From Paenibacillus sp. (GTDB lineage: Bacteria > Bacillota > Bacilli > Paenibacillales > NBRC-103111), in the NCBI GenBank assembly GCA_029239545.1, contig JARBUQ010000001.1:1-41093 (forward strand): a stretch of DNA of 41,093 nucleotides, read 5' to 3'. Numbering within the stretch: the stretch's first letter is position 1; each line of letters starts with the position of its first letter. The position numbers and the translations under genes are program-made. The notes beneath the pieces are model-generated. The model ran no database searches. It saw only the letters and a list, made by a program, of their open reading frames with translations, and had not been told where the DNA came from. Of this stretch, positions 1 through 31,492 are shown piece after piece.

Positions 1-10
1 TGAAAAAAAA

Positions 11-49
11 GCAGGATTCATTTTGTATCCATCGAATTAACTATATAAT
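11..49 (+). promoter_or_regulatory. SigH-type promoter upstream of cas5c (AGGA-N17-GAAT), plus a nearby TATAAT
   Basis: GCAGGA at 11-16 and GAAT at 34-37 with 17 nt between AGGA and GAAT, preceded by an A-tract, as in Bacillus SigH promoters such as spoVG; TATAAT at 44-49. Confidence 0.6.
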
Positions 50-152
50 ATGTGTGAAAACACACTTTTTTCTGAGCAGGTATCATTCTTAAGGAGCAGG
101 CATATTTAACTAGTAGGGGAGCTAGGCTTGCTTCTTTCTGCCAGGAGGTTTT

Positions 153-809
153 ATGGGATTTGGAATCAGATTGAAGGTCTGGGGCGAATATGCTTGCTTC
201 ACCAGGCCGGAAATGAAGGTTGAACGAGTCAGCTATGATGTAATGACACCTTCCGCAGCAAGAGGGCTGCTCGAATCCATTCATTGGAAGCCAGCTATCA
301 GATGGGTTATCGATCGTATTCATGTTTTGAATGAAATTCGCTTTGACACGATCAGGAGAAATGAACTAGAAAATAAAATTTCCCCTCGTCTCGTACAAGC
401 GGCTATGAAATCGGGGATGAGCCCTTTATCCCAACTTATTACAGAAGAACGACAGCAAAGAGCAACCTTACTGCTCAGACAGGTTGCCTATGTCATTGAG
501 GCTCATTTTGTCCTCACGGAGAAAGCAGGGGGAGAAGACCTTCCTGAGAAGCATTACGGTATGTTTTTACGGAGAGCCAGGCAGGGGCAGACATTCCATC
601 AACCTTACCTTGGCTGTCGGGAATTTGCTGCCAATTTTGAAATTCTTGAGCCTAAAGATGCATGTCCAAAATCCTATTATTATGAGATTTCTGACAAGGA
701 TTTGGGCTGGATGTTGTGGGACCTTGATTATGAGGAGGAGATGACGCCGCAATTTTTTCGCGCAGCGATGCGCCATGGAATTGTCGAAATTCCAGACCTT
801 AAGCGGTGA
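153..809 (+). CDS. cas5c: Type I-C CRISPR-associated protein Cas5c (Cas5d), crRNA-processing endoribonuclease
   Basis: Motifs VWGEYACFTRPEMKVERVSYDVMTPSAARG, IHWKPAI, EKH and QPYLGCREF; AGGAGG RBS. Confidence 0.97.
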   Translation: MGFGIRLKVWGEYACFTRPEMKVERVSYDVMTPSAARGLLESIHWKPAIRWVIDRIHVLNEIRFDTIRRNELENKISPRLVQAAMKSGMSPLSQLITEERQQRATLLLRQVAYVIEAHFVLTEKAGGEDLPEKHYGMFLRRARQGQTFHQPYLGCREFAANFEILEPKDACPKSYYYEISDKDLGWMLWDLDYEEEMTPQFFRAAMRHGIVEIPDLKR

Positions 810-821
810 GGTGGGGAGTTC

Positions 822-2645
822 ATGATTATTCAAGCTTTATACGAACGGTACGAGTACCTGCTGCAGGATCCTGCTTCCCCAATATGTGAGCCTTATTTCT
901 CAATAGCCAAAGTGTCCTATGTACTCGAAATTTCAGCTGATGGTGACCTGCTCAAGGTGATAGATCTAAGAAAGCGGCAGGGGAAAAAATGGGTGTCCCT
1001 ATCCCTTCATGTGCCGGAGCAATCAGCAAGGCAATCGAATTTCAAGCCTTATTTCTTATGTGACAAGGTTGAATATTTGCTTGGATACTACATAAGCGAA
1101 GCGAAGCTCGAAGAAGCCAACCGCAAGTTCAGCCTAAGTAGGGAGCTGCATCATTCCATCTTGGCTCATTGTGAGGGAGAGGAGGCTCGTGCGGTTCATT
1201 CGTTTTTCGATCAGTGGAATGCAAGTAAGGTGAGAGAGGTTCGCGCGCTTCAACAGCATATGTCTGGTTTGGATTCAGGTATGGATCAAGTATGCGTGTT
1301 CCGACTGGAAGGCAAGCAATCATTTATTCACGAGCATGACTCTGTTCGACAAGGCTGGATTGCCAGTCAGGAGCAAGCAGACAGCGATTCGGATATGTTA
1401 GGGCAGTGTCTGGTTACAGGCCATTCGAATGTAAGGATCTCACGCATTCACGACAACAAGATCAGGGGAGTCAAAGGGGCACAGCCAAGCGGCGCGGCGG
1501 TTGTCTCTTTCAACAAGCAATCCTTTGATTCCTACAATAAAGAGCAGAGCTACAACGCTCCAATTAGTCGTGAAGTAGCATTCGGGTATACGACAGCGCT
1601 TAATGATCTATTAGCTTCTGATCTGAATTGTATTCGTGATATAGGAGATATGACCATTGTATTCTGGACTACGGGTCCTGAGGCTAAGGCTGCAGAGCAA
1701 GTGTTCAGGGAAGGGATTATTGGCAGCAATCCATATGAGGAATCGGGGCTTGAGGAGTTTACGACGACAACAACAATTGCTGCGATGAGGGATGTGCTGT
1801 TCCACATCAGAAGGGGCAAGCCCATAACCAACATCAGTCTGCCTCCGAATGGAGTCCCCTTCCATGTGCTTGGATTATCGCCTAATAACGCAAGACTCTC
1901 AATCCGATTTCACTGGGAGGGAGGGTTCGGTTCCATGCTGCGGAAGCTGATAGAGCATAGGGCTGACTTGGAGATTGTGCAGCCGGAGCAGTTTCTCTAC
2001 CCCTCAATTTCACGTATATTGGCTGAGACCACCCGCACCGGACTGGATGGCAAGAAATCAGGAGCAGGTGTTTCTCCGGCTCTTGCTGGAGACTTATTCG
2101 CTGCTGTAGTTACTGGAAAGGGATATCCTTACTCCCTCTATGTATCCATTATGAATCGAATCCGAGCCGATCTGAATGTCAGTTCCATTCGCGCCTCAAT
2201 CCTCAAGGCTTACTTGGCCCGGTATGCAAGAATCCATCAGATTGAATCTGTGAAGGAGGTTTTGTCCGTGAGCTTGAATAAGTCCACTAACAGTTCACCT
2301 TATCGATTGGGTCGCTTGTTCGCCGTTCTTGAGCGTACGCAGTTGGAGGCATCAGGGGGATATAACAAGCTGAATACCACGATTAAGAATCGTTATTTCT
2401 CTGCAGCATCTGCAACGCCGGCAGCAGTGTTCCCTATGCTGCTCAAGCTGTCTCAGCATCATATATCCAAAGCCGATTACGGACAGTTCCGGGATCGAGA
2501 GATTCAGGAGATATTGGGGCCGATTGAGGTGTTTCCAATTCGACTGGATATGAATCAGCAAGGGATGTTCATGCTCGGCTACTATCATCAGAAGCAAGAT
2601 TTCTTCTCAGGCAGCACAAAGGCAGAGGTCAAGGTAGCAGAGTAA
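822..2645 (+). CDS. cas8c: Type I-C Cascade large subunit Cas8c (Csd1)
   Basis: MIIQALYERY start, FLCDK, CLVTG, VSFNKQSFDSY, LGLSPNNARLSIRF, YRLGRLFAVLE, FMLGYYHQ; lies between cas5c and cas7c. Confidence 0.96.
   Translation: MIIQALYERYEYLLQDPASPICEPYFSIAKVSYVLEISADGDLLKVIDLRKRQGKKWVSLSLHVPEQSARQSNFKPYFLCDKVEYLLGYYISEAKLEEANRKFSLSRELHHSILAHCEGEEARAVHSFFDQWNASKVREVRALQQHMSGLDSGMDQVCVFRLEGKQSFIHEHDSVRQGWIASQEQADSDSDMLGQCLVTGHSNVRISRIHDNKIRGVKGAQPSGAAVVSFNKQSFDSYNKEQSYNAPISREVAFGYTTALNDLLASDLNCIRDIGDMTIVFWTTGPEAKAAEQVFREGIIGSNPYEESGLEEFTTTTTIAAMRDVLFHIRRGKPITNISLPPNGVPFHVLGLSPNNARLSIRFHWEGGFGSMLRKLIEHRADLEIVQPEQFLYPSISRILAETTRTGLDGKKSGAGVSPALAGDLFAAVVTGKGYPYSLYVSIMNRIRADLNVSSIRASILKAYLARYARIHQIESVKEVLSVSLNKSTNSSPYRLGRLFAVLERTQLEASGGYNKLNTTIKNRYFSAASATPAAVFPMLLKLSQHHISKADYGQFRDREIQEILGPIEVFPIRLDMNQQGMFMLGYYHQKQDFFSGSTKAEVKVAE
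2268..2645 (+). CDS. cas11c: Cas11c small subunit from an internal in-frame start in cas8c (125 aa)
   Basis: AAGGAGG at 2253-2259, 8 nt before an in-frame GTG at 2268, just ahead of the YRLGRLFAVLE domain; internal Cas11 translation is established for type I-C. Confidence 0.8.
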   Translation: MSLNKSTNSSPYRLGRLFAVLERTQLEASGGYNKLNTTIKNRYFSAASATPAAVFPMLLKLSQHHISKADYGQFRDREIQEILGPIEVFPIRLDMNQQGMFMLGYYHQKQDFFSGSTKAEVKVAE

Positions 2646-2724
2646 CGGACAATGCGTCAAGAACCTGCGTGTGCTGAGAAAGAGCCTGACACAACACAAT
2701 TGAAAGTGAAAGGGGGATTATAAG

Positions 2725-3609
2725 GTGACGGATAAGAGAGACCGGCATCAAGCATTGGATAGACGCTTTGATTTCTCGCTCTTCTTCGATGTCAAGGACG
2801 GTAATCCAAACAGTGATCCAGATGCAGGGAATATGCCGCGGATCGATCCGGAGACCGGGCATGGAATTGTGACGGATGTATGCCTCAAGCGAAAAGTGCG
2901 CAATTATGTAGAAATTGCAAGGGAGCAGGCGGAGGGCTGCAAAATCTATGTGACGGAAGGGGCGGTACTAAACGAGAGGAATCGCATGGCATACCGCTCC
3001 TTACGACCCGCGGATGCAGATAAACCGGAACTGGCCCCCAAGGACCGCACGGAAGCGAAACATTTGACCCAGTGGATGTGCGACAACTTCTATGATATTC
3101 GCACATTCGGAGCGGTTATGAATACACGAGTGAATTGCGGACAAGTGAGAGGACCGGTTCAATTCACCTTCTCTCGCAGTATCGAGCCTATCTTCTCCCA
3201 GGAGGTGACCATTACCCGTCAGGCCGTCACCAAGGAAGGAGAAGACAAGGAGCGCGAGATAGGACGCAAGCACATGATTCCTTATGCGTTATACCGTATG
3301 GATGGTTTTGTATCGGCGTACTTGGCCCGTAAGACCGGCTTCACTGCGGCGGATTTGGATTTGCTGTGGGAAGCTATCTCCAATATGTTCGAGCATGACC
3401 GTTCTGCATCGCGGGGGATGATGACAGTCAGAAAGCTCGTTGTATTCGAGCATGAGACAGGCCTCGGCAATGCGCACGCCCACCACCTGTTCGAGCGGAT
3501 CGCCGCAGAACGGATATCAGAGGGGCCTCCCCGATCCATTCAAGATTACAAGATTCATGTAATGAAGGATCATATTCCTTCGGGTATTAAGATCAGAGAG
3601 ATATGCTAG
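2725..3609 (+). CDS. cas7c: Type I-C Cascade backbone Cas7c (Csd2)
   Basis: DGNPNSDPDAGNMPRID, TDVCLKRKVRNY, FYDIRTFGAVM, GQVRGPVQF, MFEHDRSASRG motifs. Confidence 0.97.
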   Translation: MTDKRDRHQALDRRFDFSLFFDVKDGNPNSDPDAGNMPRIDPETGHGIVTDVCLKRKVRNYVEIAREQAEGCKIYVTEGAVLNERNRMAYRSLRPADADKPELAPKDRTEAKHLTQWMCDNFYDIRTFGAVMNTRVNCGQVRGPVQFTFSRSIEPIFSQEVTITRQAVTKEGEDKEREIGRKHMIPYALYRMDGFVSAYLARKTGFTAADLDLLWEAISNMFEHDRSASRGMMTVRKLVVFEHETGLGNAHAHHLFERIAAERISEGPPRSIQDYKIHVMKDHIPSGIKIREIC

Positions 3610-3620
3610 CTGAACAAACA

Positions 3621-3758
3621 GCCGCTTCATTTTCGGCACCTCGCGTGGGGAACCGCGCGAGGTGCCGAAAGCGGAAGTGTGGATTGAAACCAGGTTATGC
3701 CTAAGTGTATGTATAAACGTATCAAGTCGCTCCCCGTCAGGGGAGTGTGGGTGTTAGA
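3621..3758 (+). CRISPR. Type I-C mini-array: modified repeat 1 (3621-3690), one 35-nt spacer (3691-3725), 3'-degenerate repeat 2 (3726-3758)
   Basis: Repeat 1 ends in GTGTGGATTGAAAC, the I-C 3' end; repeat 2 begins GTCGCTCCCC-GTCA-GGGGAGTGTGG, an I-C hairpin; spacer CAGGTTATGCCTAAGTGTATGTATAAACGTATCAA; starts 11 nt after the cas7 stop. Confidence 0.9.
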
Positions 3759-3769
3759 ATAGCGGAACG

Positions 3770-3807
3770 GCAAAAGCGTCATCCTCTGGAGGATGGCGCT
3801 TTTGCTT
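3770..3807 (+). terminator. Intrinsic terminator closing the cas/mini-array transcript
   Basis: GCAAAAGCGTCATCCTC-TG-GAGGATGGCGCTTTTGC inverted repeat with one G-U pair. Confidence 0.8.
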
Positions 3808-3861
3808 GTGGTCTTAACTTTGAAAGGAGAAGGAAACTCACAACTGAAAAGATGAATCATT

Positions 3862-3899
3862 AGGCGCCTGCTCCCTTACTGGGATCGGGGGCCTTTTTT
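3862..3899 (+). terminator. Second intrinsic terminator-like hairpin
   Basis: AGGCGCCTGCTCCC-TTACT-GGGATCGGGGGCCT imperfect stem followed by a T-run. Confidence 0.6.
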
Positions 3900-4162
3900 G
3901 GTCCTTCAGTCAGGGACTGCCCATTCCTGAGCGGTTCTTTGTGTGCAGATCGAAGGATACAAACATACCGTTCAAGCTTAGGTATTTAGACAAGCAACGG
4001 CTGAGGTGTTCTAGTACAGGCTTAGGTACAGGGGCATGGGTCGAAGTGATGAGGCATAAACCCTTGCCGTACAACGCTTGCAGCTTGTCCATACAGTGTG
4101 CCGGCAAGCTATTTTCATCTTGATTCGGGTTTATTTCGTTCCATTCGATCTACTTGTCCTGT

Positions 4163-4200
4163 GATATAAGATTTTACATCAACTTGGACATATCCTGGAA
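4163..4200 (-). promoter_or_regulatory. Partial protospacer with TTC PAM for the mini-array spacer, upstream of the polysaccharide operon
   Basis: Minus strand reads TTC-CAGGATATGTCCAAGTTGATGTAAAATCTTATATC; 24 of the first 32 positions are identical to the spacer without gaps. Confidence 0.85.
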
Positions 4201-4277
4201 GGATGAGAATAAGATGATAGTGTAAAAGCAATTTTTCAATAGGATCAGAAACAAGTCGAACGAAGGAGAAATCGCGG

Positions 4278-5045
4278 ATGGAATTTGAATTGGGCAGCAT
4301 TGTGAAACTTGTAAGGCGTCGGTTGTGGTTCATCACCACTTTGTCGATTGCTGCGCTTGCTTTTGCCTGGTACATCAGCTACTACGTGTTGAAGCCTGAG
4401 TATGAGGCGACCGCGTCTTTGCTCATCCAAGGAGACAGACAGCAGCAAGCCGTGAATGACATTGTGGCCGGACAAAAGCTGGTTACAACTTACGGTGAGA
4501 TTATTCGAAGCAACCGGATCGCGGAAGAGGTGGTGAAACGTCTGGATCTCGACATGACACCGCAAAAGCTGCTTACCAAAATCAAGACAAGGACGAGCAG
4601 TGAATCATTGCTCACGACGGTAATCGCCACAGATTCCGATCCAAAGAGGGCGAGTGATATCGCAAATGGTTTTGCCGAGACGTTCTATGGGAATATCCGG
4701 TCCATCATGGGTGTGGACAATATTCTGTTCCTGGATCAAGCCAAGGTGCCGTCCGAGCCCATTCCGGTTACACCCAAGCCATTCTTCAACATGGTGGTTG
4801 CCTTCGGACTTGCTCTTGTCGCGGGAATCGGAATATCGATTGTGCGGGAGATGATGGACAAAACCGTCAGCAGTACAAAGGACATCGAGCTTGAGCTGCA
4901 GCTGCCGTTATTAGGCACGGTCGGGAAGCTGAAGCCGCGCAAATGGAGGCGCAAACTGCGCAGACATAAATCCTTAGAAGGGGAGAGCGAATATGAGAAA
5001 GAGGATACCTCGATTGTACTGCCAGGCCGAACCGAAATCAGCTAA
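4278..5045 (+). CDS. Wzz/CapA/EpsA-type chain-length regulator (tyrosine-kinase modulator)
   Basis: N-terminal TM, PEYEATASLLI, PVTPKP followed by a second TM, LPLLGTV; AAGGAG RBS. Confidence 0.92.
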   Translation: MEFELGSIVKLVRRRLWFITTLSIAALAFAWYISYYVLKPEYEATASLLIQGDRQQQAVNDIVAGQKLVTTYGEIIRSNRIAEEVVKRLDLDMTPQKLLTKIKTRTSSESLLTTVIATDSDPKRASDIANGFAETFYGNIRSIMGVDNILFLDQAKVPSEPIPVTPKPFFNMVVAFGLALVAGIGISIVREMMDKTVSSTKDIELELQLPLLGTVGKLKPRKWRRKLRRHKSLEGESEYEKEDTSIVLPGRTEIS

Positions 5046-5721
5046 TGCGGAGCTGTTCCGTGCGATTCGGACTAATATTCGCTATACCCGGGTAGGCGGC
5101 GAGATCCGCTCGATATTGGTCACAAGCTCTCTTCCCGGGGAGGGCAAATCGACAGTAGCCGTTAACCTCGCTGTCGCTATAGCGGAAACCGGAAGAACGG
5201 TGCTGCTCATTGATGGGGACCTGCGCACTCCCGCGGTTCATGAGGCCTTTGACCTGCCTAACATTACCGGCTTAACAAGCATCCTCGTGGATCAGGCCAA
5301 GCTGGCGGATTGCGTGTATGAGATCAGGGATTCGCCAGGACTATGTGTTCTGCCCTCTGGCCCGTTATCTCCGAATCCTGCTGAACTGCTCGGCTCTAAT
5401 GGGATGATGCATCTGCTCGCTGAGCTTCATGACAAGTGGGACACCTTGATTATCGATGGCTCGTCGGTTCTGCTGCCTTCCTCAGATGCGTTGATCCTGT
5501 CCTCTATGACAGAGGGAGTGCTGCTTGTCGTTCAATCCGGCAAAGTGCTGCAGAAGCATACGAACAGTGCCAAGCTATTGCTGGAAAAGCAAGGCGCCCA
5601 CCTGTTAGGAGCCGTGTTGAACAGAAAAGGCCGGAGCAGCAAAAAAGGCGATAACAAAAGCTATGCGATCAGTGGAGAAGACTTCGCATCGTGGGCTTCC
5701 TCGGCAGGGAAGGACAGATGA
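4993..5721 (+). CDS. CpsD/CapB/EpsB-family bacterial tyrosine kinase
   Basis: AELFRAIRTNI, Walker A SSLPGEGKST, LLIDGDLR, PNPAELLGS, LLGAVLN. Confidence 0.92.
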   Translation: MRKRIPRLYCQAEPKSANAELFRAIRTNIRYTRVGGEIRSILVTSSLPGEGKSTVAVNLAVAIAETGRTVLLIDGDLRTPAVHEAFDLPNITGLTSILVDQAKLADCVYEIRDSPGLCVLPSGPLSPNPAELLGSNGMMHLLAELHDKWDTLIIDGSSVLLPSSDALILSSMTEGVLLVVQSGKVLQKHTNSAKLLLEKQGAHLLGAVLNRKGRSSKKGDNKSYAISGEDFASWASSAGKDR

Positions 5722-6956
5722 CCTTTCTGGCTATCCGTTATTTGCTCGGCAGCATCGTCTATGCGGGAGCTCAGTTCGTTATTGTGAGTTTGTTGAACAA
5801 ATTCGGCTCTACTGAGCACATCGGACAATATGCACTCGGACTCGCCATCACGGCTCCAATCTTCATGCTGTCGCATCTGCACCTGCGTTCAGTCTGGATC
5901 GTGAATTCGTCCGGCAAGCATACGTTCGGATCCTACATCGGTCTTCGCTGGCTAACGAGTGCCGCTGCGTTCTCCATCACGGTTGGCATAGCACTCTTAG
6001 GCGGATTCGACCGTAATACGAGTCTGGTAATTGTCCTGATCAGCACGTATCGATTTATTGAATCGATCAGCGACTTGCTGCTGGGAGTTTGTCAGAAGCA
6101 GGAGCAGCTGGATTCGATAACCTTCTCCAGAATATCCAAAGGCATCATATCCACGATTAGTTTCATTCTGGTATACATACCGACACAAAGCCTTATTCTG
6201 TCGTTGCTCACCATGATTATCGGGTGGTTCTGTATTATGCTCGGGTACGATTTCCGCAAGGCACGCCAACTGGTAGCAACCCGGCCTGTGTTCGCTTATA
6301 AGCAATTAAAACCGCTCGTTCGCGCAAGCGCTCCGCTGGGCATCGTGCTTGCGCTCATGTCCTTGAATGCGAATATCCCTCATTATTCGATTGCTTACTT
6401 CAGGGGACAGCATGATCTTGGGGTGTACGCTTCACTCGCTTATATGATTGTAGCTTGCAACGTGGTAGTAACGGCACTTGGCGAGGCGTACACACCACGT
6501 CTGGCAAAATGGTTCACCGAAGGCCGGTACTCCCTATTTGTCCGTTTACTAGTCCGGATGATCACGATGGGGGTTCTGCTTGGCGGTTTGGGATGTATAG
6601 GGGGATGGGCATTTGGAACGGAGCTGCTCACCTTGTTATACAATCGCGAGCTTGCTGCCGAGATGGAGGTGTTCTTATGGATGCTGCTCTCGACCTTACT
6701 CATCTTTGTTTCATCATTCCTGTGGTATGGCATCACGGCAACCCGAACCTTCAGCCTGCAAATTCCCCTTTTTCTGTGTACTGCGGGGAGTAATGCGGCG
6801 GCCTGTCTCCTGCTTGTTCCGCGTTATGGCTTGGTGGGAGCTGCTGCCGGCACGATGGTTTCCTTGCTTGTCCAGACGGGAGGGAGTGTGCTGTTGTTGA
6901 TTTACGCAATGAATAAGGAAAAAAGAAGAGTAAATGGGGAAGCAGCAGCGGCATAA
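5718..6956 (+). CDS. Wzx-type polysaccharide flippase
   Basis: Many TM segments, GQYALGLAITAPIF, LGVYASLAY, LVPRYGLVGAA; ATG overlaps the upstream stop (ATGA). Confidence 0.88.
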   Translation: MTFLAIRYLLGSIVYAGAQFVIVSLLNKFGSTEHIGQYALGLAITAPIFMLSHLHLRSVWIVNSSGKHTFGSYIGLRWLTSAAAFSITVGIALLGGFDRNTSLVIVLISTYRFIESISDLLLGVCQKQEQLDSITFSRISKGIISTISFILVYIPTQSLILSLLTMIIGWFCIMLGYDFRKARQLVATRPVFAYKQLKPLVRASAPLGIVLALMSLNANIPHYSIAYFRGQHDLGVYASLAYMIVACNVVVTALGEAYTPRLAKWFTEGRYSLFVRLLVRMITMGVLLGGLGCIGGWAFGTELLTLLYNRELAAEMEVFLWMLLSTLLIFVSSFLWYGITATRTFSLQIPLFLCTAGSNAAACLLLVPRYGLVGAAAGTMVSLLVQTGGSVLLLIYAMNKEKRRVNGEAAAA

Positions 6957-6990
6957 CAGCTGGTGCAGCTTCCTCGAATTGGGGGATAAG

Positions 6991-8265
6991 ATGTCGTCCT
7001 TGTATTTAGCATGGAACACGCTTCGCAAAAATGATACAAAACGGATCAAATTCACAACCGGATCGTTATTCCAGATTGCGGTTGCAGGGTATGTCGTATG
7101 CTTGCCTGCTCAATTCGATTTTGGAGGTGCATTCCGCTTTGCCCCCTCAGACATGTTCCTGCTTATCGGGCTGTCCGCAGCGGGCATGCAGCTCAAGATC
7201 GATCGCCGCATGTTCAGCTCCTGGCACTGGGGGATGCTGCTGATCTTCTTATTCGCATCCTTCGTAGCGATGTGGCAGAACGGGTTTATATCCAAATATG
7301 CCTTGCTGCAAAAGGATTTTGGATTCGTTCTGCTCCTGCTTACCTACATCATGCTGACTCAAGCGGTGGATAGCTGGGATCGATTGTACCGTTTGCTGAG
7401 GATATTCCTGCTCAGCGTTCTGTGGATGAACGCAACTGCATTATTCGCCTTCTTCAGCGGTGTGCGTGTTCCCTTCATGGTGCAGGATGGCCGGTTATCC
7501 GGCATGTTGATTGATCCGAATGCATACGGCGGTCTACTCGTTACGGCCTTTGCTGTCCATATTATGACGAGCGGCGGCTCGAGACGGCTGCTCAGCGGAT
7601 GGATGAGCCAGCTTGCAACCTTGACGCTGTCAGGTGGAATTGTGATAACCTTCTCACGCTCCTCCTGGATCGGGCTTTTCCTCATCTTAATGACACTCTC
7701 GATTGTGAAGCCGGCTCGCCTGATCAAGGTAGGACTTGGCTTTGCAGCAGCCTTCACGGTGCTGCTTATATACAAGGGCCCGGCTTATCTGGACATCCTG
7801 AGTTCGATGGCGAGTCGGCCTTCGCAGATTCAATCACGGCTTGATATTCTCACCAAGGCGTTCGAGTGGATCGCCCAGAGCCCGCTTTTTGGCATCGGTC
7901 TGGGGACTTACAATCTCAATCTCGGAATCATCATTCACAATACGCCCATGTGGTTTATAACAGAATTCGGCTTATTGGGTTTCCTTGTGTATGGCGGGTT
8001 CATGGTTTGGTTTTTCTTCATCGGCATTCGCTCATACCAAGCAGCTATGCCTGTGCATCGTCCGGTTATATTAGCTTTTCTGTTGTCACATGCCGCGATG
8101 ATTGGTTTGTCTATGGGCATTGAGGCGCTGTTTCAACGGTACTGGTGGTTCATGATGGCCCTGAATGCAGCATGCATTCGACTTACGGCTTTACCGGGCA
8201 GCGATGTAACGCAAGCTCAAGCAATTTCTACTCATGAAGGGAGGGAAGATCTGCATGCAAGATAG
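6991..8265 (+). CDS. Wzy/O-antigen ligase-family polymerase
   Basis: Polytopic membrane protein with RLSGMLIDPNAYG, TFSRSSW, PLFGIGLG, HNTPMWFITEFGLLG; start chosen after a GGGGG RBS (ORF is open from 6934). Confidence 0.85.
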   Translation: MSSLYLAWNTLRKNDTKRIKFTTGSLFQIAVAGYVVCLPAQFDFGGAFRFAPSDMFLLIGLSAAGMQLKIDRRMFSSWHWGMLLIFLFASFVAMWQNGFISKYALLQKDFGFVLLLLTYIMLTQAVDSWDRLYRLLRIFLLSVLWMNATALFAFFSGVRVPFMVQDGRLSGMLIDPNAYGGLLVTAFAVHIMTSGGSRRLLSGWMSQLATLTLSGGIVITFSRSSWIGLFLILMTLSIVKPARLIKVGLGFAAAFTVLLIYKGPAYLDILSSMASRPSQIQSRLDILTKAFEWIAQSPLFGIGLGTYNLNLGIIIHNTPMWFITEFGLLGFLVYGGFMVWFFFIGIRSYQAAMPVHRPVILAFLLSHAAMIGLSMGIEALFQRYWWFMMALNAACIRLTALPGSDVTQAQAISTHEGREDLHAR

Positions 8266-9490
8266 GACTGGCGTTCCACTTAAGGCAGCATGGGTAGCAT
8301 CGATCTATAGACACTTTACCGGTTTCCATATTCCTTATATGAAGCTGCTGCAGCAGAAGGGCTGCGAGGTGCACGCCTATGCGCAATCCGGTGAAGGACG
8401 GGAGCAGCTCGAAGCGATAGGAGTAATCTGTCACGATGTCCCGATTTGCCGCAGTCCGCTTCGCAAGGAGAACCTGAAAGCTCTCGCGATGCTAACGGAC
8501 AGCTTCCGCCAAGAGAAGTTCCAGCTCGTACATGTCCACACGCCGGTTGCTGCACTTCTGGGGCGAATCGCAGCGAGAAGGGCCGGCGTACCTTGTACGA
8601 TTTATACGGCTCATGGCTTCCATTTTCACAAGGGGGCACCGCTGCTGAACTGGCTCCTCTATTATCCGCTCGAAAGAATGATGGCGCGATGGACGGATAT
8701 CTTGATCACTATGAATGGCGAGGATTGGGAGCGGGCCTTGAACTTCAAGGTACAGGGGAAGGTGGTTTACGTCCCGGGTGTAGGGATTGATCTTGAAGCC
8801 TATGGGGGGAAGCTGGAGGACAATCCGAACGGAAAACGCGATGCCAGGCGCAAGCTGAACCTGCCACATCTTCAGAATCAGACTCGGGATGCTTACATCG
8901 TGCTCTGTATAGCGGAATTGAATGCGAACAAGAATCAGAGGCAGTTGATCGAGGCATTAGGAGAAGCGGGTACTCAAGGAAGCGACATCCACCTCGTCCT
9001 AGCGGGAACGGGGCATCTGGAAACAGCGCTGATCTCACTGGCAGAGCGGCTGGGTGTGCAGGATCGGGTGCATATGCTCGGATACAGACGAGACATCCCT
9101 GATCTGCTGCAAGCTTGTGATGCGGTAGCCCTTTTATCCCATCGCGAAGGGCTGCCGCGAGCGATTATGGAGGCTATGGCGGCGGGTAAGCCAGTGCTGG
9201 GCACCCATATTCGCGGCATTCGCGACCTGGTGGCCGAAGGCGTCTCAGGCATTCTGGTTCCTGTCGGCGATAACACTGCGACAGCGGATGCCCTTATCCG
9301 TTTGCGTAATCAGCCTGCGCTGTCGGGCAGAATGGGAGCCGCAGGTCGTGCGCGATTAGTTGACTACAGCTTGCCATCCGTGATGCAGGAGATGGATGTG
9401 ATTTATTCCGATGCGCTGCGAATAAAAGCAGAAGATGAAGCGCCCGCTGCCCAGCCCGTATCGGTAGTGCCACGATCAGGAGAGCATTAA
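8255..9490 (+). CDS. Glycosyltransferase family 4 (EpsD-like)
   Basis: HVHTPVAA, YTAHGFHF, GYRRDIPDLL, EGLPRAIMEAMAAGKPV. Confidence 0.93.
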   Translation: MQDRTGVPLKAAWVASIYRHFTGFHIPYMKLLQQKGCEVHAYAQSGEGREQLEAIGVICHDVPICRSPLRKENLKALAMLTDSFRQEKFQLVHVHTPVAALLGRIAARRAGVPCTIYTAHGFHFHKGAPLLNWLLYYPLERMMARWTDILITMNGEDWERALNFKVQGKVVYVPGVGIDLEAYGGKLEDNPNGKRDARRKLNLPHLQNQTRDAYIVLCIAELNANKNQRQLIEALGEAGTQGSDIHLVLAGTGHLETALISLAERLGVQDRVHMLGYRRDIPDLLQACDAVALLSHREGLPRAIMEAMAAGKPVLGTHIRGIRDLVAEGVSGILVPVGDNTATADALIRLRNQPALSGRMGAAGRARLVDYSLPSVMQEMDVIYSDALRIKAEDEAPAAQPVSVVPRSGEH

Positions 9491-9610
9491 TCTGTTTTAG
9501 GATCCGAGCTTCTGTCCAATTCTTGTCACTTGTAAGCGGCGTGCCAACATGCAGTCTATGGACGCCTGGTTGTTGTTGTGGAAATCATTCGGTCGATGAG
9601 GGTGAAAGAA

Positions 9611-11554
9611 ATGGTCATTAAGACTCGTCTAGTGCGCTTGGCTTTGTTGGATGCGGCAATTGTGGCAGCTTCTCTGTGGTTCGTATTCTCGCTTCGGTTT
9701 GAGTTCGATATCCCTGTGATGTACTTGCACATGCTCCCCTATGCGATTTTGATCCATGTAACGGTGCACACTATTTGCTTCTTCGGGTTTCGAGTGTATC
9801 ACAGCATATGGCGCTACACCGGTATCGAGGAGATGGTATTGCTGCTAAAAGTAAGTGCGCTGACGTTCGCAGGTGTGCTTGCCGCGAATATGCTTGCGCA
9901 TCTTATCGTGCCTTCTTATCGTCTGCCGCTGTCGATTTATTCTGCCGCAGGTTATGTATTCCTCGGTATCGCAGGTTCACGCATGATCAGTCGCCTGCTG
10001 GGCGACCAATTCATGAGAACGAAGGAGCCGCTGACCGAGGGAGCTAAGCTGTTGATCATTGGAGCGGGCAAGGCAGGAATCCTGATCGCCAAGGATATCA
10101 AACATTCTAGATTCAAATTCATGACCCCCGTTGCTTTTGTAGATGATGATCCGGCTAAGCAAAATTTGGAGATTATGGGTTTGCCCATCGTCGGTACACG
10201 CAGTCATATCCCTGAAGCAGTTAAGCGGATGAATATTGACTATATCGTAATTGCTCTCCCAGCTGCCTCTCGCCAGGCGGTAACGGACATTCTCGAAATC
10301 TGCAAATCTACTAAAGCTCAGATCAAGCTGCTGCCCAGCATGTCGGATATTTTGAACGGCAAAATGTCGGTCAATATGATTCGCGAGGTGTCTGTGAACG
10401 ATCTGTTAGGACGGGCGCCCGTTGAGATTAATGGCAAGGAAATCCGGGAAAGCCTGGAGCATGAAACCGTTCTGATAACCGGCGCTGGAGGCTCGATAGG
10501 CTCGGAGCTATGCCGTCAGGTAGCGATGTACAAACCGAAGGAGCTGCTGCTTGTCGGCCACGGGGAGAACAGTATTTATTTGATCGAGGGCGAGCTTCGC
10601 AGGCTGTTCCCGAGTCAGTCCGTACATGCCATTATCGCAGATATTCAGGACATATCCCGAATTGAAAGTGTATTTCACAGCTATCGGCCTACGCTAGTCT
10701 ACCATGCTGCCGCGCATAAGCACGTTCCGCTTATGGAGACGAATCCGGCTGAAGCCATCAAGAATAATGTCCTCGGCACACGTAATGTTGCGGCGGCGAG
10801 TGACAAGTACGGGGTCAAACGTTTCATCCTCATCTCCTCCGATAAGGCGGTCAATCCTACAAGCATCATGGGAGCGACCAAGCGCATTGCTGAGATGATC
10901 GTCCATGATATGAATCTTTCCAGTAAAACAGCCTTCGCGGCCGTTCGTTTCGGCAACGTGCTTGGCAGTCGGGGCAGTGTAATTCCACTGTTTCAGAAGC
11001 AGATTGAGGCAGGGGGGCCTGTAACCGTGACTCACATGGATATGGTCCGCTACTTCATGACCATTCCGGAAGCGGTACAGCTCGTTATTCAGGCCAGTGT
11101 GCTAGTGCAAGGCGGCGAAGTATTCGTGCTGGATATGGGCAAGCCGGTTCGCATATATGATTTGGCCAAAGACTTGATCCGCTTGTCGGGACTTGAGCCG
11201 GAGAAGGATATTCCGATTGTGGTCACTGGCATTCGGCCAGGGGAGAAGCTGTACGAAGAGCTGCTTACGGAAGAGGAAGGGCTTATGGTTACGACCAACG
11301 ATCGGATCATGGTCAGCCGACCCGCAAATATTCCGCGTTCGGAGCTCATGATGGTTCTCGGGATTCTGGAGAATCTGACGAAGAGGTATGAAGTTGCAGC
11401 AGGCAGCTATCAAGTGAAAAAACTGCTCAAGCAGCTCGTTCCAAGCTACCTCGGTGTGCAGGAGGAGCCTCCATCTGTGGAGCCAGATCGTGATCGGGAG
11501 CGCGAACGCGAACAACGTGAACGGGTGAAGGTAGAGCTGCATGCTGGAACATGA
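9611..11554 (+). CDS. CapD/EpsC/PglF-family UDP-GlcNAc 4,6-dehydratase
   Basis: N-terminal TMs, GAGKAG, TGAGGSIGSELCRQ, HAAAHKHVP, SSDKAVNP, VRFGNVLGSRGSV. Confidence 0.95.
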   Translation: MVIKTRLVRLALLDAAIVAASLWFVFSLRFEFDIPVMYLHMLPYAILIHVTVHTICFFGFRVYHSIWRYTGIEEMVLLLKVSALTFAGVLAANMLAHLIVPSYRLPLSIYSAAGYVFLGIAGSRMISRLLGDQFMRTKEPLTEGAKLLIIGAGKAGILIAKDIKHSRFKFMTPVAFVDDDPAKQNLEIMGLPIVGTRSHIPEAVKRMNIDYIVIALPAASRQAVTDILEICKSTKAQIKLLPSMSDILNGKMSVNMIREVSVNDLLGRAPVEINGKEIRESLEHETVLITGAGGSIGSELCRQVAMYKPKELLLVGHGENSIYLIEGELRRLFPSQSVHAIIADIQDISRIESVFHSYRPTLVYHAAAHKHVPLMETNPAEAIKNNVLGTRNVAAASDKYGVKRFILISSDKAVNPTSIMGATKRIAEMIVHDMNLSSKTAFAAVRFGNVLGSRGSVIPLFQKQIEAGGPVTVTHMDMVRYFMTIPEAVQLVIQASVLVQGGEVFVLDMGKPVRIYDLAKDLIRLSGLEPEKDIPIVVTGIRPGEKLYEELLTEEEGLMVTTNDRIMVSRPANIPRSELMMVLGILENLTKRYEVAAGSYQVKKLLKQLVPSYLGVQEEPPSVEPDRDREREREQRERVKVELHAGT

Positions 11555-11587
11555 CTCGTGCAGCATGCGCTTAAGCAGGAGGCGGTC

Positions 11588-12688
11588 ATGAGCAAACGAT
11601 GGAAATTCAGTGTGATCGGGCTGATTATCTTGTTGGTTGGCGTGGGGAGCATGCTGTACGGATTAAGCCCGCAGCGGCATTTTCGCTCGGGTGCTCCGAA
11701 GGCACTGGCCATGCCGCAGCCGATTCCGCACGATTGGGGCAAGAGCGAATACGTGTCGGATGATCAAGCTACAGAGGAGGACAACGAGCTGGATGAGCCC
11801 CTTGCTCGCTCTGACGAATCAGCAGTCCCATCCGATCAGACGCACACCAGCCATACTACATCAATAGCAGCTGCACCAACCCCGGCTGCTTCAACGAATT
11901 CCAAATCGACCCACTCAGCCAATTCCTTCAATGTCGTATTGATTGGAACAGATACGTGGGGAGAAGAGGGCTCGCGGGCAGATACGATTATGGTCGTCCA
12001 TGTGATGCCGAACAGCCGCAAGGTCAATATCGTATCGATTCCAAGAGACACCAGGGTGTACGTCCAGGGCGTAGGTTACACGAAGATCAACCATGCCCAC
12101 AGCGTAGGCGAAGCTAAGGGCGGCAATCATCAAGGAACGCTGACGCTCGCGCAGGCGGTCAGTGATTTCCTGAACATTCCGGTCCATCACTACATCAAGA
12201 CGAATTTTGCCGGAGTCAGCAGCTTCATAGATAAGATTGGCGGAATTGAGATGTACATCGAGCAGGACGTTACGATTACACCGGAGATCGTGATTCGGCA
12301 AGGTGACCAGCATCTGGATGGACAGCATGCTTTGTTCCTGGCACGGGAGAGGTATTCGGTTCCAGGGGGCGATTTTGGTCGTCAGATCGCGCAATTCCGC
12401 ATTGTTCGGGCCGTAGCCAGACAATTGCTGAAGCCGGAGCATCTCCCCGATCTTGCTGCCCTTATTAGCAGCGGGAGGCAGGATTTGATGGACACAAGCT
12501 TCAGCGATTCGGACTTAATCAGCCTGGCCTGGTTGTTCAAGGGGATGGACACGGAAGACTTTGCATATGAGCAAATACCTGGGAAAGACAGCAGCGGGCC
12601 TGATCCCCTCGTCGGAAGCGATGTGTATTACTGGAGCGCAGATCCGGTGCAGGTCCGGTCAATTCGGGAACGGATGTTTAACTCATAG
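11588..12688 (+). CDS. LCP (LytR-CpsA-Psr) family glycopolymer transferase
   Basis: Single N-terminal TM, RADTIMV, SIPRDTRV, KINHAH, ARERY, GDFGR; AGGAGG RBS. Confidence 0.92.
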   Translation: MSKRWKFSVIGLIILLVGVGSMLYGLSPQRHFRSGAPKALAMPQPIPHDWGKSEYVSDDQATEEDNELDEPLARSDESAVPSDQTHTSHTTSIAAAPTPAASTNSKSTHSANSFNVVLIGTDTWGEEGSRADTIMVVHVMPNSRKVNIVSIPRDTRVYVQGVGYTKINHAHSVGEAKGGNHQGTLTLAQAVSDFLNIPVHHYIKTNFAGVSSFIDKIGGIEMYIEQDVTITPEIVIRQGDQHLDGQHALFLARERYSVPGGDFGRQIAQFRIVRAVARQLLKPEHLPDLAALISSGRQDLMDTSFSDSDLISLAWLFKGMDTEDFAYEQIPGKDSSGPDPLVGSDVYYWSADPVQVRSIRERMFNS

Positions 12689-12728
12689 CGGCAACATGGT
12701 CACATGTAAAAGGTTAAGGAGGAGTTCG

Positions 12729-13361
12729 ATGTACCGTATGCTCAAGCGAAGCTGCGATATTGTGGGAGCCATTATCTTATTATGTATTTTCTCACCCGTT
12801 ATGGCTGTAGTGGCCCTGCTCATTCGCATTAAATTAGGAAGCCCGATTTTATTCAAGCAGCAAAGACCCGGTTTGGCAGAGCGTCCCTTTGAGATTTATA
12901 AGTTCCGTACAATGGCCGTCCTGTATGGACCGGATGGCGAGCTCTTATCCGATGAGTGCAGGTATAGCAAATTCGGGGGAGTGATCCGCAGATTGAGCCT
13001 CGATGAGCTGCCGCAGTTCCTCAACGTATTGAAAGGGGATATGAGCCTGATTGGACCGCGCCCGCTGCTCATGAGGTACACCCCTTATTATTCCGAGAGG
13101 GAACGGCTTCGGTTCACAGTAAGGCCAGGTGTTACTGGACTCGCCCAAGTATCAGGACGCAATAAACTGTCATGGAATGACCGGCTATCACTGGATGTAA
13201 CCTATGTGGAACAGCTTAGCTTCCAACAGGATTTTCGCATTCTATGGAAGACCGTACAGAAAGTTGTTCGTCAGGAGGATGTAGTTGAGAATCCCAGCCT
13301 GCATGACCTTCCGTTGGATGCCCACAGGCTGCAGCTGCAGGCGAGGGAGGGCTCCGTATGA
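12729..13361 (+). CDS. Priming phosphoglycosyl transferase (EpsL/PglC family)
   Basis: KRSCDI, FKQQRPG, YKFRTM, SLDELPQFLNVLKGDMSLIGPRP, RPGVTGLAQV; AAGGAGGAG RBS. Confidence 0.95.
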   Translation: MYRMLKRSCDIVGAIILLCIFSPVMAVVALLIRIKLGSPILFKQQRPGLAERPFEIYKFRTMAVLYGPDGELLSDECRYSKFGGVIRRLSLDELPQFLNVLKGDMSLIGPRPLLMRYTPYYSERERLRFTVRPGVTGLAQVSGRNKLSWNDRLSLDVTYVEQLSFQQDFRILWKTVQKVVRQEDVVENPSLHDLPLDAHRLQLQAREGSV

Positions 13362-14164
13362 AGGTGCAGTTCCGCCCGCTCGACTCTGACAAAGATATTC
13401 AGAAGGCATGCCGCTTATTGAGGGACTCCATGCCAGAGAGAGAATACAACCGAACGATCTTCTCCTGTTCCGGGTATCCGCAATATTTGCGGGCCGCGTT
13501 CTGGTGCCGCACCCACGCAGCAACTATGCTGATTGGCGCTTATGACGGGGAGCATCTGATCGGCTTCGCGGAATGGAGGAGACTGGAAACTCAGTTCGTG
13601 CTCAACAATCTGAACGTGGATGCGGCTTACCGCAGCTATGGGATAGGGAGCCGCCTGATTGCATACGGGGAAGAGCTTGCTCTAAAGGAAGGGGTAGGGA
13701 CGCTTACACTCGATGTGTTTGCCTGGAATGAGCATGCTTATGAATGGTATAAGAGGCTGGGCTTCGTGGAGACCAATCGCACTTATTGGTATGAGAGAAG
13801 TCTTTATTCGAGGGGGAACTCACCAGTTATGGACAGTGTGCCTCCATACATAGTAGAGGACTTTCCGATGGCGGAGGCCCATCATGCCGCGTACGGCTTC
13901 TCTTCGCTTCGAATCAGAATGCAGCGAGGGACCATACAAGTCGGGCGACTGGGGGCATCGTATTACCGGCTTCAGACACAGAACGGAGATTGGGATTGGA
14001 ATGGCTCGCTTATAGCGGCTTTAACAGATCTGGATCCAGAGCGCAGATTACTGCTGTTATCTCCCGATGCCGGCTTGGCTCAATGCGACAGTGGACTGGT
14101 TATGATCAGCGAAAGCGTGCGGATGAACAAGAAGCTGGAGGAACGGGCGGTGTATTATGGATAA
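13358..14164 (+). CDS. GNAT-family N-acetyltransferase with C-terminal extension
   Basis: VDAAYRSYGIGSRL acyl-CoA motif, N..AYEWYKRLGF. Confidence 0.8.
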   Translation: MKVQFRPLDSDKDIQKACRLLRDSMPEREYNRTIFSCSGYPQYLRAAFWCRTHAATMLIGAYDGEHLIGFAEWRRLETQFVLNNLNVDAAYRSYGIGSRLIAYGEELALKEGVGTLTLDVFAWNEHAYEWYKRLGFVETNRTYWYERSLYSRGNSPVMDSVPPYIVEDFPMAEAHHAAYGFSSLRIRMQRGTIQVGRLGASYYRLQTQNGDWDWNGSLIAALTDLDPERRLLLLSPDAGLAQCDSGLVMISESVRMNKKLEERAVYYG

Positions 14165-15260
14165 CTTCGAGGTGCTGGATAGCTCTAATAAAAGGGACTG
14201 GGATCATTATCTGAGTTTGATGACAGACAAGGATATATATTTCACCTCTGAATATTGCCGGTTATACGAGATTGAGGGCGAGCAGAAGGCGGAGCTGTTC
14301 GTTTACAAGCGGGACGGGAGGTTGATCCTGTATCCGTACCTGCTTCGTTCGATTCATAATCTTGAAGTTATGCGTGAGCTGGGTATAGGGGGAGATTGGT
14401 ATGATATCAGCACCCCTTACGGCTATGGGGGCCCCATTACCGATGCACCATCAGGACCGGAGCGGGAAGCCTTATTCCGCAGCTTCAATGAAGTATTCAC
14501 TGCTTATTGCCGGGAGCGCTGCATTATAACAGAATTCGTAAGGTTTCATTCCTTGCTGGACAATGTGTTTGATTATAGTGCAGTTGAGTCGCAATTAAGC
14601 CGCAATACAGCATTCATTGATTTGACTGTTGGCTCCGAATCAGAGCTGATCCAGCGGTATTGCCGTAATCATAAGACGAATATTCGCAAGTGGAGCTCGT
14701 CTCCTCTAACGATTCGTCATTCAAGTCAGTTCGCTGATCGAATGGACGCTTTTACCCAGCTGTACTATGGTACCCTTCAGGATTTGCAGGCAGACTCCTT
14801 TTATTATTTTCCGCGGAGCTTCCTGGAGGACACACGCCGCTTGCTGGAAGGCCGTTTGGAGCTGTTTGAAGTGATGCACGGGGAGACAGCTATAGCGGCC
14901 TGCCTGATTATGCATGAATTTCCGCGAATGCACTATCATTTGAGCGGTTGGAATCGGGACTATCTGCATTGGGCACCAACCAAGATGCTCATTCATGCCG
15001 CCGCGCTCTGGGGAATGGAAGCAGGCTTCGAGAAGTTCCATCTGGGCGGGGGGTATAGCGGCAATGACAGCCTGTATCAATTCAAGAAAGGCTTTGGCAC
15101 GAACAATGAGCTTGACTATTATTTGGGCAAACGCGTGTTTTTCCCTGAGCTGTATGAGCAAATCCGGACACAGGGACCCCTGGCTGTACAGGATAGCGCG
15201 TATTTTCCCATTTATCGACATCCACAATTCAGGACAGGTTCGGTCCCTTCACCCCATTAA
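14157..15260 (+). CDS. FemAB-like double-GNAT acyl/aminoacyl transferase
   Basis: DISTPYGYGGP, EFVRFH, YYFPRSF, HYHLSG, FHLGGG, LYQFKKGF. Confidence 0.8.
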   Translation: MDNFEVLDSSNKRDWDHYLSLMTDKDIYFTSEYCRLYEIEGEQKAELFVYKRDGRLILYPYLLRSIHNLEVMRELGIGGDWYDISTPYGYGGPITDAPSGPEREALFRSFNEVFTAYCRERCIITEFVRFHSLLDNVFDYSAVESQLSRNTAFIDLTVGSESELIQRYCRNHKTNIRKWSSSPLTIRHSSQFADRMDAFTQLYYGTLQDLQADSFYYFPRSFLEDTRRLLEGRLELFEVMHGETAIAACLIMHEFPRMHYHLSGWNRDYLHWAPTKMLIHAAALWGMEAGFEKFHLGGGYSGNDSLYQFKKGFGTNNELDYYLGKRVFFPELYEQIRTQGPLAVQDSAYFPIYRHPQFRTGSVPSPH

Positions 15261-15294
15261 ATGAATGAATAATCGGAAGGAATGTGAGCAGCAC

Positions 15295-16473: not shown

Positions 16474-16480
16474 CGATCGA

Positions 16481-18121: not shown

Positions 18122-18153
18122 AATCAATCACTCCTTTTTCTATAATTCTTGTA

Positions 18154-18182
18154 TATGTTATGAAAATATTAAAGAGACGTGT
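18154..18182 (-). promoter_or_regulatory. SigK-type promoter for the beta-helix gene
   Basis: Minus strand ACAC-N16-CATAACATA, matching AC-N16-CATANNNTA. Confidence 0.6.
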
Positions 18183-18224
18183 AGGACGAACAACACGGTC
18201 TCAGACAAAGCGAGGTAAAACAGG

Positions 18225-31370: not shown

Positions 31371-31470
31371 GAACTGTTACGAAATAAAGTCCCTGCCATT
31401 TGGCTGAAAGAGCTTGCCGACTCTGGCAAGCTCTTTCAGCCAAACAGGGCGGTAATTTCGTAACAGTTCC
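31370..31470. mobile_element. 101-bp MITE-like element with 16-bp TIRs and a TTA target-site duplication
   Basis: GGAACTGTTACGAAAT...ATTTCGTAACAGTTCC; TTA at 31367-31369 and 31471-31473; internal 20-bp perfect stem. Confidence 0.75.
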
Positions 31471-31492
31471 TTAATAGCTGTGAAGCATGGAG

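What the first reader, a model, noticed from the sequence alone, without database searches (positions are those of the whole stretch)
3680..3807. Mini-array conserves only the parts needed for one mature crRNA
Repeat 1 retains the 11-nt 5' handle TGGATTGAAAC. Repeat 2 retains the 3' hairpin CGCTCCCC-GTCA-GGGGAGTG but its handle has decayed to TGGGTGTTAG, and a terminator follows. There is no leader, since the array starts 11 nt after the cas7 stop, so guide and proteins would be co-transcribed. Predicted product is about 68 nt (3680-3747). This asymmetric decay resembles crRNA-like regulatory RNAs (CreA/CreR type) more than random erosion.
Basis: partly seen in the sequence, partly recalled or inferred. 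Interest (0 to 1): 0.75.

Follow-up and report, generated by a model that had tools for sequence, protein, structure and literature searches.

The report
Nuclease-less Cascade aimed at polysaccharide promoter
A CRISPR complex with no DNA-cutting gene beside it carries one guide that matches the likely promoter of the neighbouring polysaccharide genes in four related Paenibacillus-type loci, so it likely acts as an RNA-guided off-switch for the cell's sugar coat rather than as immunity.

Summary
The 35-nt spacer pairs with a TTC-PAM site 77 nt upstream of the adjacent exopolysaccharide/capsule operon, the best of 188,149 TTC sites in the genome. The locus is cas5c-cas8c(cas11c)-cas7c with no cas3, cas4, cas1 or cas2. 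The same guide-target pair occurs in three more loci. Spacer and target change together at positions 3, 15 and 21, and mismatches cluster at every sixth base, the Cascade signature. The cas genes are under purifying selection. One 98%-complete genome has no cas3, cas1 or array match at all. The target covers a box conserved in guide-less copies of the operon. Best reading: a domesticated type I-C Cascade that represses a host polysaccharide operon. It is not CreR (it does not target the cas promoter) and not CreA. Caveats: no expression data; this window's own guide has seed mismatches at 5 and 10; repeat 1 keeps its stem too. Not found in 10 paper searches or in the scan's earlier notes.

The parts
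11..39 (+). Promoter-like motif upstream of cas5c (AGGA...GAAT; sigma-H-type by recalled consensus)
   Evidence: A loose form of the motif lies upstream of cas5 in 4 of 4 loci and upstream of the separate G002 guide, against 2 of 12 upstream regions of other cas operons. The motif class is enriched upstream of genes in this genome.
153..809 (+). cas5c, pre-crRNA processing endonuclease and Cascade subunit
   Evidence: TIGR01876, 185 bits against a cut-off of 85; close to solved I-C Cas5 chains such as 8dex_A
822..2645 (+). cas8c
   Evidence: TIGR01863, 430 bits against 219
2268..2645 (+). Predicted internally translated Cas11c (ribosome-binding site at 2253, GTG at 2268)
   Evidence: RBS plus in-frame start codon at the same place in 4 of 4 loci; internal Cas11c translation in I-C is recalled knowledge
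2725..3609 (+). cas7c
   Evidence: TIGR02589, 342 bits against 182
3621..3690 (+). Repeat 1: basal stem kept, 11-nt handle at 3680-3690
3629..3673 (+). Hairpin inserted in the loop of repeat 1 (small dispersed palindrome family; specific to this lineage)
   Evidence: Absent in L076 and G001; related copies on C211, C298, C81, C470; present on one 2,667-nt contig of run X1, which may be the source sample
3691..3725 (+). Single 35-nt spacer (guide)
3726..3757 (+). Repeat 2: hairpin kept (to 3747), handle decayed
3769..3810 (+). Terminator-like hairpin closing the cas-guide unit
   Evidence: z -4.5; counterparts in three relatives; not listed by the consensus scan
4163..4197 (-). Protospacer-like target of the guide (24 of 35 matches; 22 of 30 outside every-sixth positions)
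   Evidence: Rank 1 of 188,149 TTC sites in G000
4198..4200 (-). TTC PAM of type I-C, 77 nt upstream of the first polysaccharide gene
   Evidence: Present at the same register in 4 of 4 loci
4185..4211 (+). Conserved two-part box (TGGACATA-N12-GAGAATA), likely the operon promoter; guide positions 6-13 cover its upstream half
   Evidence: Found 86-92 nt upstream of the start codon in 10 of 12 guide-less orthologous operons and once in the whole G000 assembly
4278..20230 (+). Wzy-type exopolysaccharide/capsule gene cluster (chain-length protein, tyrosine kinase, flippase, polymerase/ligase, glycosyltransferase, dehydratase, LCP, phosphosugar transferase, GNATs, aminotransferase, epimerase, acyltransferase); one gene (16481-18127) lies on the other strand

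Best explanation
A type I-C Cascade operon with no cas3 or adaptation genes at its locus carries one guide that matches a PAM-flanked site on the likely promoter of the adjacent polysaccharide operon, and likely works as a dedicated RNA-guided repressor of that operon. Steps: (1) shown: cas5c, cas8c and cas7c are intact and under purifying selection. (2) Predicted: one transcript from a sigma-H-type promoter runs through cas7 into the mini-array and stops at the terminator. (3) Predicted: Cas5c cuts at the base of both hairpins to give a 68-nt crRNA. (4) Shown as sequence: the guide matches 4163-4197 next to TTC. (5) Inferred: Cascade binds there, covers the upstream promoter box and blocks RNA polymerase without cutting. 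(6) Inferred origin: a spacer taken from the host's own promoter was kept after cas3 and the rest of the array were lost. In this window the guide has drifted (real mismatches at 5, 10 and 17), so repression here is likely weaker than in the relatives.
For: Target: best of 188,149 TTC sites, 22 of 30 scored positions against 19 for the next site; 0 of 2000 shuffled spacers scored as well on the 28 TTC sites of this intergenic region; shuffles reached 22 anywhere in the genome in 4 of 300 cases, and their best site never lay in this region. Conservation: same guide, PAM and register in L076, G001 and G002; the PAM-plus-seed pattern is an exact match once per genome in G001 and G002, at this site. 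Covariation at positions 3, 15 and 21 (also 30 and 31 in the weakly paired tail). Mismatches at 9 of 14 every-sixth positions against 4 of 74 others (Fisher p 2e-6; positions 1-24 for three loci, 1-16 for G002, ranges chosen after seeing the data; loci are kin). Selection: dN/dS 0.03-0.08 for cas5/7/8 between G000 and L076, like the first polysaccharide gene (0.08); no longer branch for G000 than for L076 in any of three protein trees. No nuclease: G002 (98% complete) has no cas3 core, cas3 HD or cas1 match over cut-off and a single I-C handle in the whole genome. In L076 the gene upstream of cas5 is an unrelated divergent gene, and window 1-152 aligns to that upstream DNA. The pair survives rearrangement: a 1,258-aa lyase-like gene lies between guide and target in L076, and in G002 the cas genes sit at the far end of the cluster on the other strand while the guide has its own promoter-like motif. 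Precedent: I-C crRNA-like RNAs with 16-bp pairing, mismatches at 6 and 12, a TTC PAM and a target beside the -35 box repress 5- to 60-fold (bioRxiv 10.1101/2024.12.27.630466, passages and section 5).
Against: No transcript, start site or binding data. The window's own guide mismatches its target at seed position 5 and at 10 and 17, whereas the three relatives pair fully over non-sixth positions 1-16; without the PAM constraint the site only ties with one other at 24 of 35. G000 is 68.8% complete and holds the tail of an ordinary I-C array at the edge of contig C322, so an unlinked cas3 or a better target may be missing from the assembly. G001 has a separate complete I-C system with cas3 (Cas7 36% identical) and 435 repeat-end matches genome-wide. 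The genome of L076 could not be searched. That the covered box is a promoter is inferred from position and conservation; its sigma factor is unresolved (the TGGA variant of the sigma-H-like motif is not enriched upstream of genes, 9 of 153). Only four loci, three known to be of one genus.
Confidence: 0.74

Rival explanations
1. Same binding and repression, but its purpose is defence sensing: the Cascade is a decoy whose inactivation by phage anti-CRISPR proteins, or titration by ordinary crRNAs, releases the operon so that the cell makes a protective coat (CRISIS-like logic).
For: I-C crRNA-like RNAs repress defence systems that are released by anti-CRISPRs. G001 carries a large I-C array elsewhere, and G000 an array tail, whose crRNAs could compete for this Cascade.
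Against: G002 has no other I-C repeat, cas3 or cas1 match. The promoter-like motif shared by all four cas operons points to growth-phase control. No evidence that this polysaccharide blocks phage.
Confidence: 0.1
2. The circuit is ancestral and works in the relatives, but the window's copy has lapsed: the seed mismatches and the insert in repeat 1 stop binding or processing.
For: Mismatches at 5 and 10 are unique to G000. The position-5 change gives the promoter the base seen in all 10 guide-less boxes, as an escape change would. The 45-nt insert is unique to G000.
Against: The cas frames, the internal Cas11 start, the handle, the basal stem and the PAM are intact. Pairing continues to position 32 and the site still ranks first in the genome. 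The G000 branches are not lengthened.
Confidence: 0.1
3. Cascade binding raises rather than lowers expression, because the covered box is an operator for a protein repressor.
For: The box has no assigned sigma factor; nothing here measures direction.
Against: The two-part shape and fixed distance to the start codon fit a promoter. No activator domain or extra gene is attached to the Cascade. The cited natural Cascade cases repress.
Confidence: 0.03
4. A decaying CRISPR remnant: a self-targeting spacer forced loss of cas3 and the rest is neutral debris, or the spacer is aimed at a phage.
For: Loss of cas3 after self-targeting is a known outcome (recalled).
Against: Purifying selection through saturated synonymous distance; covariation and six-base periodicity. 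No phage or plasmid record covers 80% of the spacer (0 of 20 and 0 of 5 weak hits); the 2 viral-contig pattern hits match only 13-18 of 35 bases.
Confidence: 0.03

Closest known systems
Type I-C crRNA-like RNAs of CRISIS loci (bioRxiv 10.1101/2024.12.27.630466; passages and section 5 read; supplements not seen)
   Same: I-C Cascade, 11-nt 5' handle, 3' hairpin or second pseudo-repeat, about 16-bp pairing with mismatches at 6 and 12, TTC PAM, target at a -35 region of neighbouring non-cas genes
   Different: Those sit between cas3 and cas5c in loci with cas3 and repress anti-phage systems. Here the guide follows cas7c (or stands alone), the locus has no cas3, cas1, cas2, cas4 or array, the spacer is full length, and the target is a host polysaccharide operon.
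CreR and CreA (bioRxiv 10.1101/2023.03.10.532045; abstract and outline read; CreA also from passages)
   Same: Degenerate two-repeat mini-array giving one partly matching guide to a promoter
   Different: CreR represses cas promoters and CreA a toxin gene, as side jobs of a working immune system. Here regulation appears to be the only job left.
Mini-arrays and cargo-gene regulation of Shmakov et al. (PMC10120712; passages and sections 22 and 24 read; supplements not seen)
   Same: Upstream repeat intact, downstream repeat degraded, no leader, PAM-flanked partial target in a nearby promoter
   Different: The class 1 survey is mapped on Cas3 trees; cargo is toxin-antitoxin, defence or regulatory genes. 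'Paenibacillus' and 'polysaccharide' occur 0 times in the main text.
TldR and dCas12f RNA-guided transcription factors (PMC13472631; passages read; TldR seen only through that paper)
   Same: An RNA-guided system that has lost nuclease function and been kept to control host genes, including cell-surface genes
   Different: Those are single TnpB/Cas12-family proteins. This is a multi-subunit class 1 Cascade that lost a separate nuclease gene.
Cas3-less type I variants in the 2025 classification (PMC12669027; passages read)
   Same: Type I effector without Cas3
   Different: The passages list HNH-fused variants and transposon-linked CASTs; no host-gene repressor variant appeared in them, and no HNH or transposase gene was seen at these loci.

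Membership tests
Type I-C CRISPR-Cas | cas5c, cas8c, cas7c | tested here: met
   All over NCBIfam cut-offs
Type I-C CRISPR-Cas | I-C repeat with hairpin and 11-nt handle; TTC PAM; internal Cas11c start | tested here: met
Type I-C CRISPR-Cas | cas3 in the locus | tested here: not met
   None at the locus in L076, G001 or G002. In the window none downstream; the contig starts 152 nt upstream of cas5, and that DNA aligns to the cas3-free upstream region of L076.
Type I-C CRISPR-Cas | cas4-cas1-cas2 and a leader-driven array | tested here: not met
CreR | Degenerate mini-array giving a crRNA-like guide | tested here: met
   (sequence only)
CreR | Target is the cas promoter (autorepression) | tested here: not met
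   The best site is the polysaccharide promoter region
CreA / CreTA | Target is a toxin gene kept with a working CRISPR locus | tested here: not met
   Downstream genes are polysaccharide biosynthesis genes; whether their over-expression is harmful was not tested
CRISIS-type I-C crRNA-like RNA | About 16-bp pairing, mismatches at 6 and 12, TTC PAM, promoter target | tested here: met
   Met in L076, G001 and G002; the window has extra mismatches at 5 and 10
CRISIS-type I-C crRNA-like RNA | Lies between cas3 and cas5c and controls an immune system | tested here: not met
CRISPR-associated transposon (I-C CAST) | Transposase or TniQ genes beside the Cascade | tested here: inconclusive
   None among the annotated neighbours; two ORFs upstream of cas5 in G001 have no Pfam hit; no genome-wide TniQ search was run
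RNA-guided transcriptional repressor (functional class) | Measured guide-dependent repression | not testable with these tools
   needs a reporter or knockout

The most novel reading that the evidence does not exclude
A class 1 CRISPR effector fully domesticated as a host transcription factor: a stand-alone, growth-phase-timed Cascade whose one guide controls capsule/exopolysaccharide synthesis, the multi-subunit counterpart of TldR. The guide-promoter pair is older than the protein set that serves it, because G002 uses a Cascade from a different lineage (Cas8c AU p 0.0008) with the same guide.
Probability: 0.55. Interest if true: 0.88.

Novelty: new variant of a known kind. Interest (0 to 1): 0.78.

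Why it matters
The Cascade-guided repression found in the papers consulted is a side job of working immune loci (cas, toxin or defence promoters; a few non-cas genes in Haloferax). Here the immune parts are gone from the locus, in one genome apparently altogether, yet Cascade and a single guide are kept under selection to sit on a host cell-surface operon. That would be a natural CRISPRi switch and a clean case of class 1 CRISPR becoming a transcription factor, and it answers in one concrete case what self-targeting spacers and cas3-less operons can be for. It is directly testable: the named record L086 (Paenibacillus koleovorans NBRC 103111) carries the whole layout, and four natural guide-target variants give a ready mismatch series.

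Tried and rejected
Rfam: 5 weak matches in 2600-4400, none near its gathering score. Phage or plasmid target: none covering 80% of the spacer; 2 viral-contig pattern hits fail beyond the pattern; the one viral contig with a related Cas7 is an ordinary complete I-C locus. Wider spread: a Cas8c scan of genome contigs found nothing. Of 5 metagenome hits to the handle-plus-spacer pattern, 4 were spacers of ordinary arrays and 1 was a true locus, L076. No I-C handle in 7 of 7 guide-less operon loci held with up to 10 kb of flank, but their far ends were not read; 1 of 5 such genomes has an unlinked cas7c. Of the 8 other loci with a strong Cas8c match in the 136 genomes of the family, 7 have cas3 beside them and 1 is cut by its contig end. 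Expression: no RNA holder listed; both runs are DNA contigs. Sigma-70 scan: nothing above chance. Sigma-H for the target promoter: not supported, left unassigned; the paper search for the sigma-H consensus gave nothing usable, so that label is recalled. One origin for all four Cascades: rejected for Cas8c (p-AU 0.0008), not rejected for Cas7 (0.084) or Cas5 (0.39), 12 rows each; the 61-row tree is only the quick version and its clade test did not finish. A first regex for the promoter box had the wrong spacing and returned 0 of 12; corrected. The two C322 spacers have no self-target beyond one 14-nt match. Literature: 10 searches found no description of this system; subscription papers and the supplements of the cited papers were not seen and could list it.

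Full report
Observation. The window begins with cas5c (153-809), cas8c (822-2645) and cas7c (2725-3609), all over their NCBIfam cut-offs. Eleven bases after the cas7 stop comes repeat 1 (3621-3690), then a 35-nt spacer (3691-3725), repeat 2 (3726-3757) and a terminator-like hairpin. Repeat 1, however, keeps its basal stem; a 45-nt hairpin replaces its loop. L076 has a plain 31-nt repeat there, and related hairpins lie on four other contigs, so this is a recent insertion. The next gene (4278) starts a Wzy-type exopolysaccharide/capsule cluster that runs to about 20230. No cas3, cas4, cas1 or cas2 follows.

The target. A genome-wide scan found the spacer's best non-self matches at 24 of 35 bases; one of the two lies in the window at 4197-4163 on the minus strand behind TTC, the I-C PAM. 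Scoring only TTC sites and skipping every sixth base, it ranks first of 188,149 (22 of 30; next 19). No shuffled spacer of 2000 did as well on the 28 TTC sites of this intergenic region; 4 of 300 shuffles reached 22 somewhere in the genome, and their best site was never here. The PAM lies 77 nt upstream of the first polysaccharide gene. Guide positions 6-13 cover the upstream half of a two-part box that sits 86-92 nt before the start codon in 10 of 12 guide-less copies of the same operon (most from one genus, so not independent) and occurs once in G000. I read it as the promoter, older than the guide; its sigma factor is unresolved.

Relatives. Both other genomes of the genus and one metagenome-collection contig carry the pair. 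G001 has cas5-8-7, repeat, 36-nt spacer, decayed repeat, terminator and target, with pairing over 1-24 broken only at 6 and 12. L076 pairs perfectly over 1-16 and has a 1,258-aa lyase-like gene between guide and target. G002 has a single repeat, 35 nt, then a terminator-like hairpin, pairing over 1-16 except 6 and 12; its cas5-8-7 lie at the far end of the cluster on the other strand. Spacer and target change together at positions 3, 15 and 21. Mismatches fall on 9 of 14 every-sixth positions and 4 of 74 others (p 2e-6; ranges chosen after seeing the data, loci related), the pattern expected if pairing happens inside Cascade (stated in the papers). The handle-plus-spacer pattern occurs in 3 of 401 genomes of the order, so the system is narrow in the sample searched. 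The named records L086 (P. koleovorans NBRC 103111) and L082 (Paenibacillus sp. HJGM_3) show the full layout and the guide, respectively.

The proteins are maintained. dN/dS between G000 and L076 is 0.03-0.08 for the three cas genes and 0.08 for the first polysaccharide gene; dS is 1.1-3.5, so the values are rough. A ribosome-binding site and in-frame start for Cas11c are kept in 4 of 4 loci. Cas5c aligns over nearly its full length with solved I-C Cas5 chains. G002, 98% complete, has no cas3 or cas1 match over cut-off and one I-C handle in the genome. G001 has a second, divergent, complete I-C system elsewhere. G000 has no cas3 or cas1 match but is 68.8% complete and shows the tail of an ordinary array at a contig edge. 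So 'no cas3' holds at the locus in all four, and genome-wide is well supported only for G002.

Control and history. An AGGA...GAAT motif, sigma-H-type by recalled consensus, lies upstream of cas5 in 4 of 4 loci and upstream of G002's separate guide, against 2 of 12 upstream regions of other cas operons. In G000, 22 of 37 strict matches lie upstream of ORFs and the AGGA form is enriched there (38 of 161 against 10-11% for controls). This suggests that repression is switched on at entry to stationary phase; that is inference. In trees, G000, L076 and G001 form one clade for Cas5 and Cas8c (unresolved for Cas7), while G002 groups with ordinary cas3-bearing systems for Cas7 and Cas8c. One origin is rejected for Cas8c (p-AU 0.0008) but not for Cas7 (0.084) or Cas5 (0.39). 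The simplest reading is one ancestral guide whose Cascade was replaced in G002; two origins are possible.

Mechanism. Most likely (0.74): a leaderless cas-guide transcript is cut by Cas5c into one crRNA, Cascade binds the promoter box next to TTC, and polymerase is blocked, with no cutting because Cas3 is absent or pairing is partial. Shown: genes, selection, match, covariation. Inferred: transcript, processing, binding, direction, timing. The precedent is close: I-C crRNA-like RNAs with 16-bp pairing beside a -35 box repress 5- to 60-fold. Against: no expression data, and the window's own guide has real mismatches at 5, 10 and 17; the change at 5 gives the promoter the base seen in all 10 guide-less boxes, so this copy may be tuned down or lapsed. 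Rivals: defence sensor (0.10), lapsed copy (0.10), activation (0.03), debris or phage target (0.03).

Comparison and novelty. It works like CreR, CreA and CRISIS guides but fails their membership tests on target and on context. In logic it is nearer to TldR and dCas12f, nuclease-less systems kept to control host genes, but it is built from a class 1 Cascade. The passages read from the 2025 classification list Cas3-less type I variants only as HNH fusions or CASTs. Ten paper searches found no account of this system; supplements and subscription papers were not seen. The scan's earlier notes hold several CreR-type cases but none like this. Verdict: real, a new variant of a known kind, interest 0.78.

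Noticed in passing
window 3910-4130; L076 4600-4790: About 220 nt of intergenic DNA upstream of the target is well conserved between G000 and L076 although synonymous sites are saturated; no Rfam match. It may be a second regulatory element or an RNA. G001 lacks it.
   Followed up: no
L031 12118-12690 (G032): A cas3-cas5-8-7 locus with no cas4-cas1-cas2 beside cas7, short arrays on both sides, and a solitary repeat plus a short ORF-like stretch between cas3 and cas5; looks like a CreTA/CRISIS-type crRNA-like unit.
   Followed up: no
G000 C322 1-136: Tail of an ordinary I-C array (two repeats, two spacers) at a contig edge, with no cas genes matched elsewhere in the assembly.
   Followed up: partly
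window 3629-3673; C211, C298, C81, C470: A small dispersed palindrome family, one copy inserted in the loop of repeat 1; after Cas5c cleavage it would cap the 3' end of the cas mRNA and might stabilise it.
   Followed up: partly
L076 4906-8682: A 1,258-aa secreted protein with carbohydrate-binding and heparinase II/III-like domains inserted between the guide and the polysaccharide operon.
   Followed up: no
window 16481-18127: A pectate-lyase-like gene on the opposite strand inside the polysaccharide cluster, conserved in G001 and G002.
   Followed up: no
L108 (G001 C65): A second, complete type I-C system whose Cas7 is only 36% identical to the regulatory one, with a very large array; cross-loading of crRNAs between the two Cascades is untested.
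   Followed up: partly
window 31369-31471: Nested inverted repeats (27-nt and 20-nt arms) forming a long intergenic hairpin.
   Followed up: no
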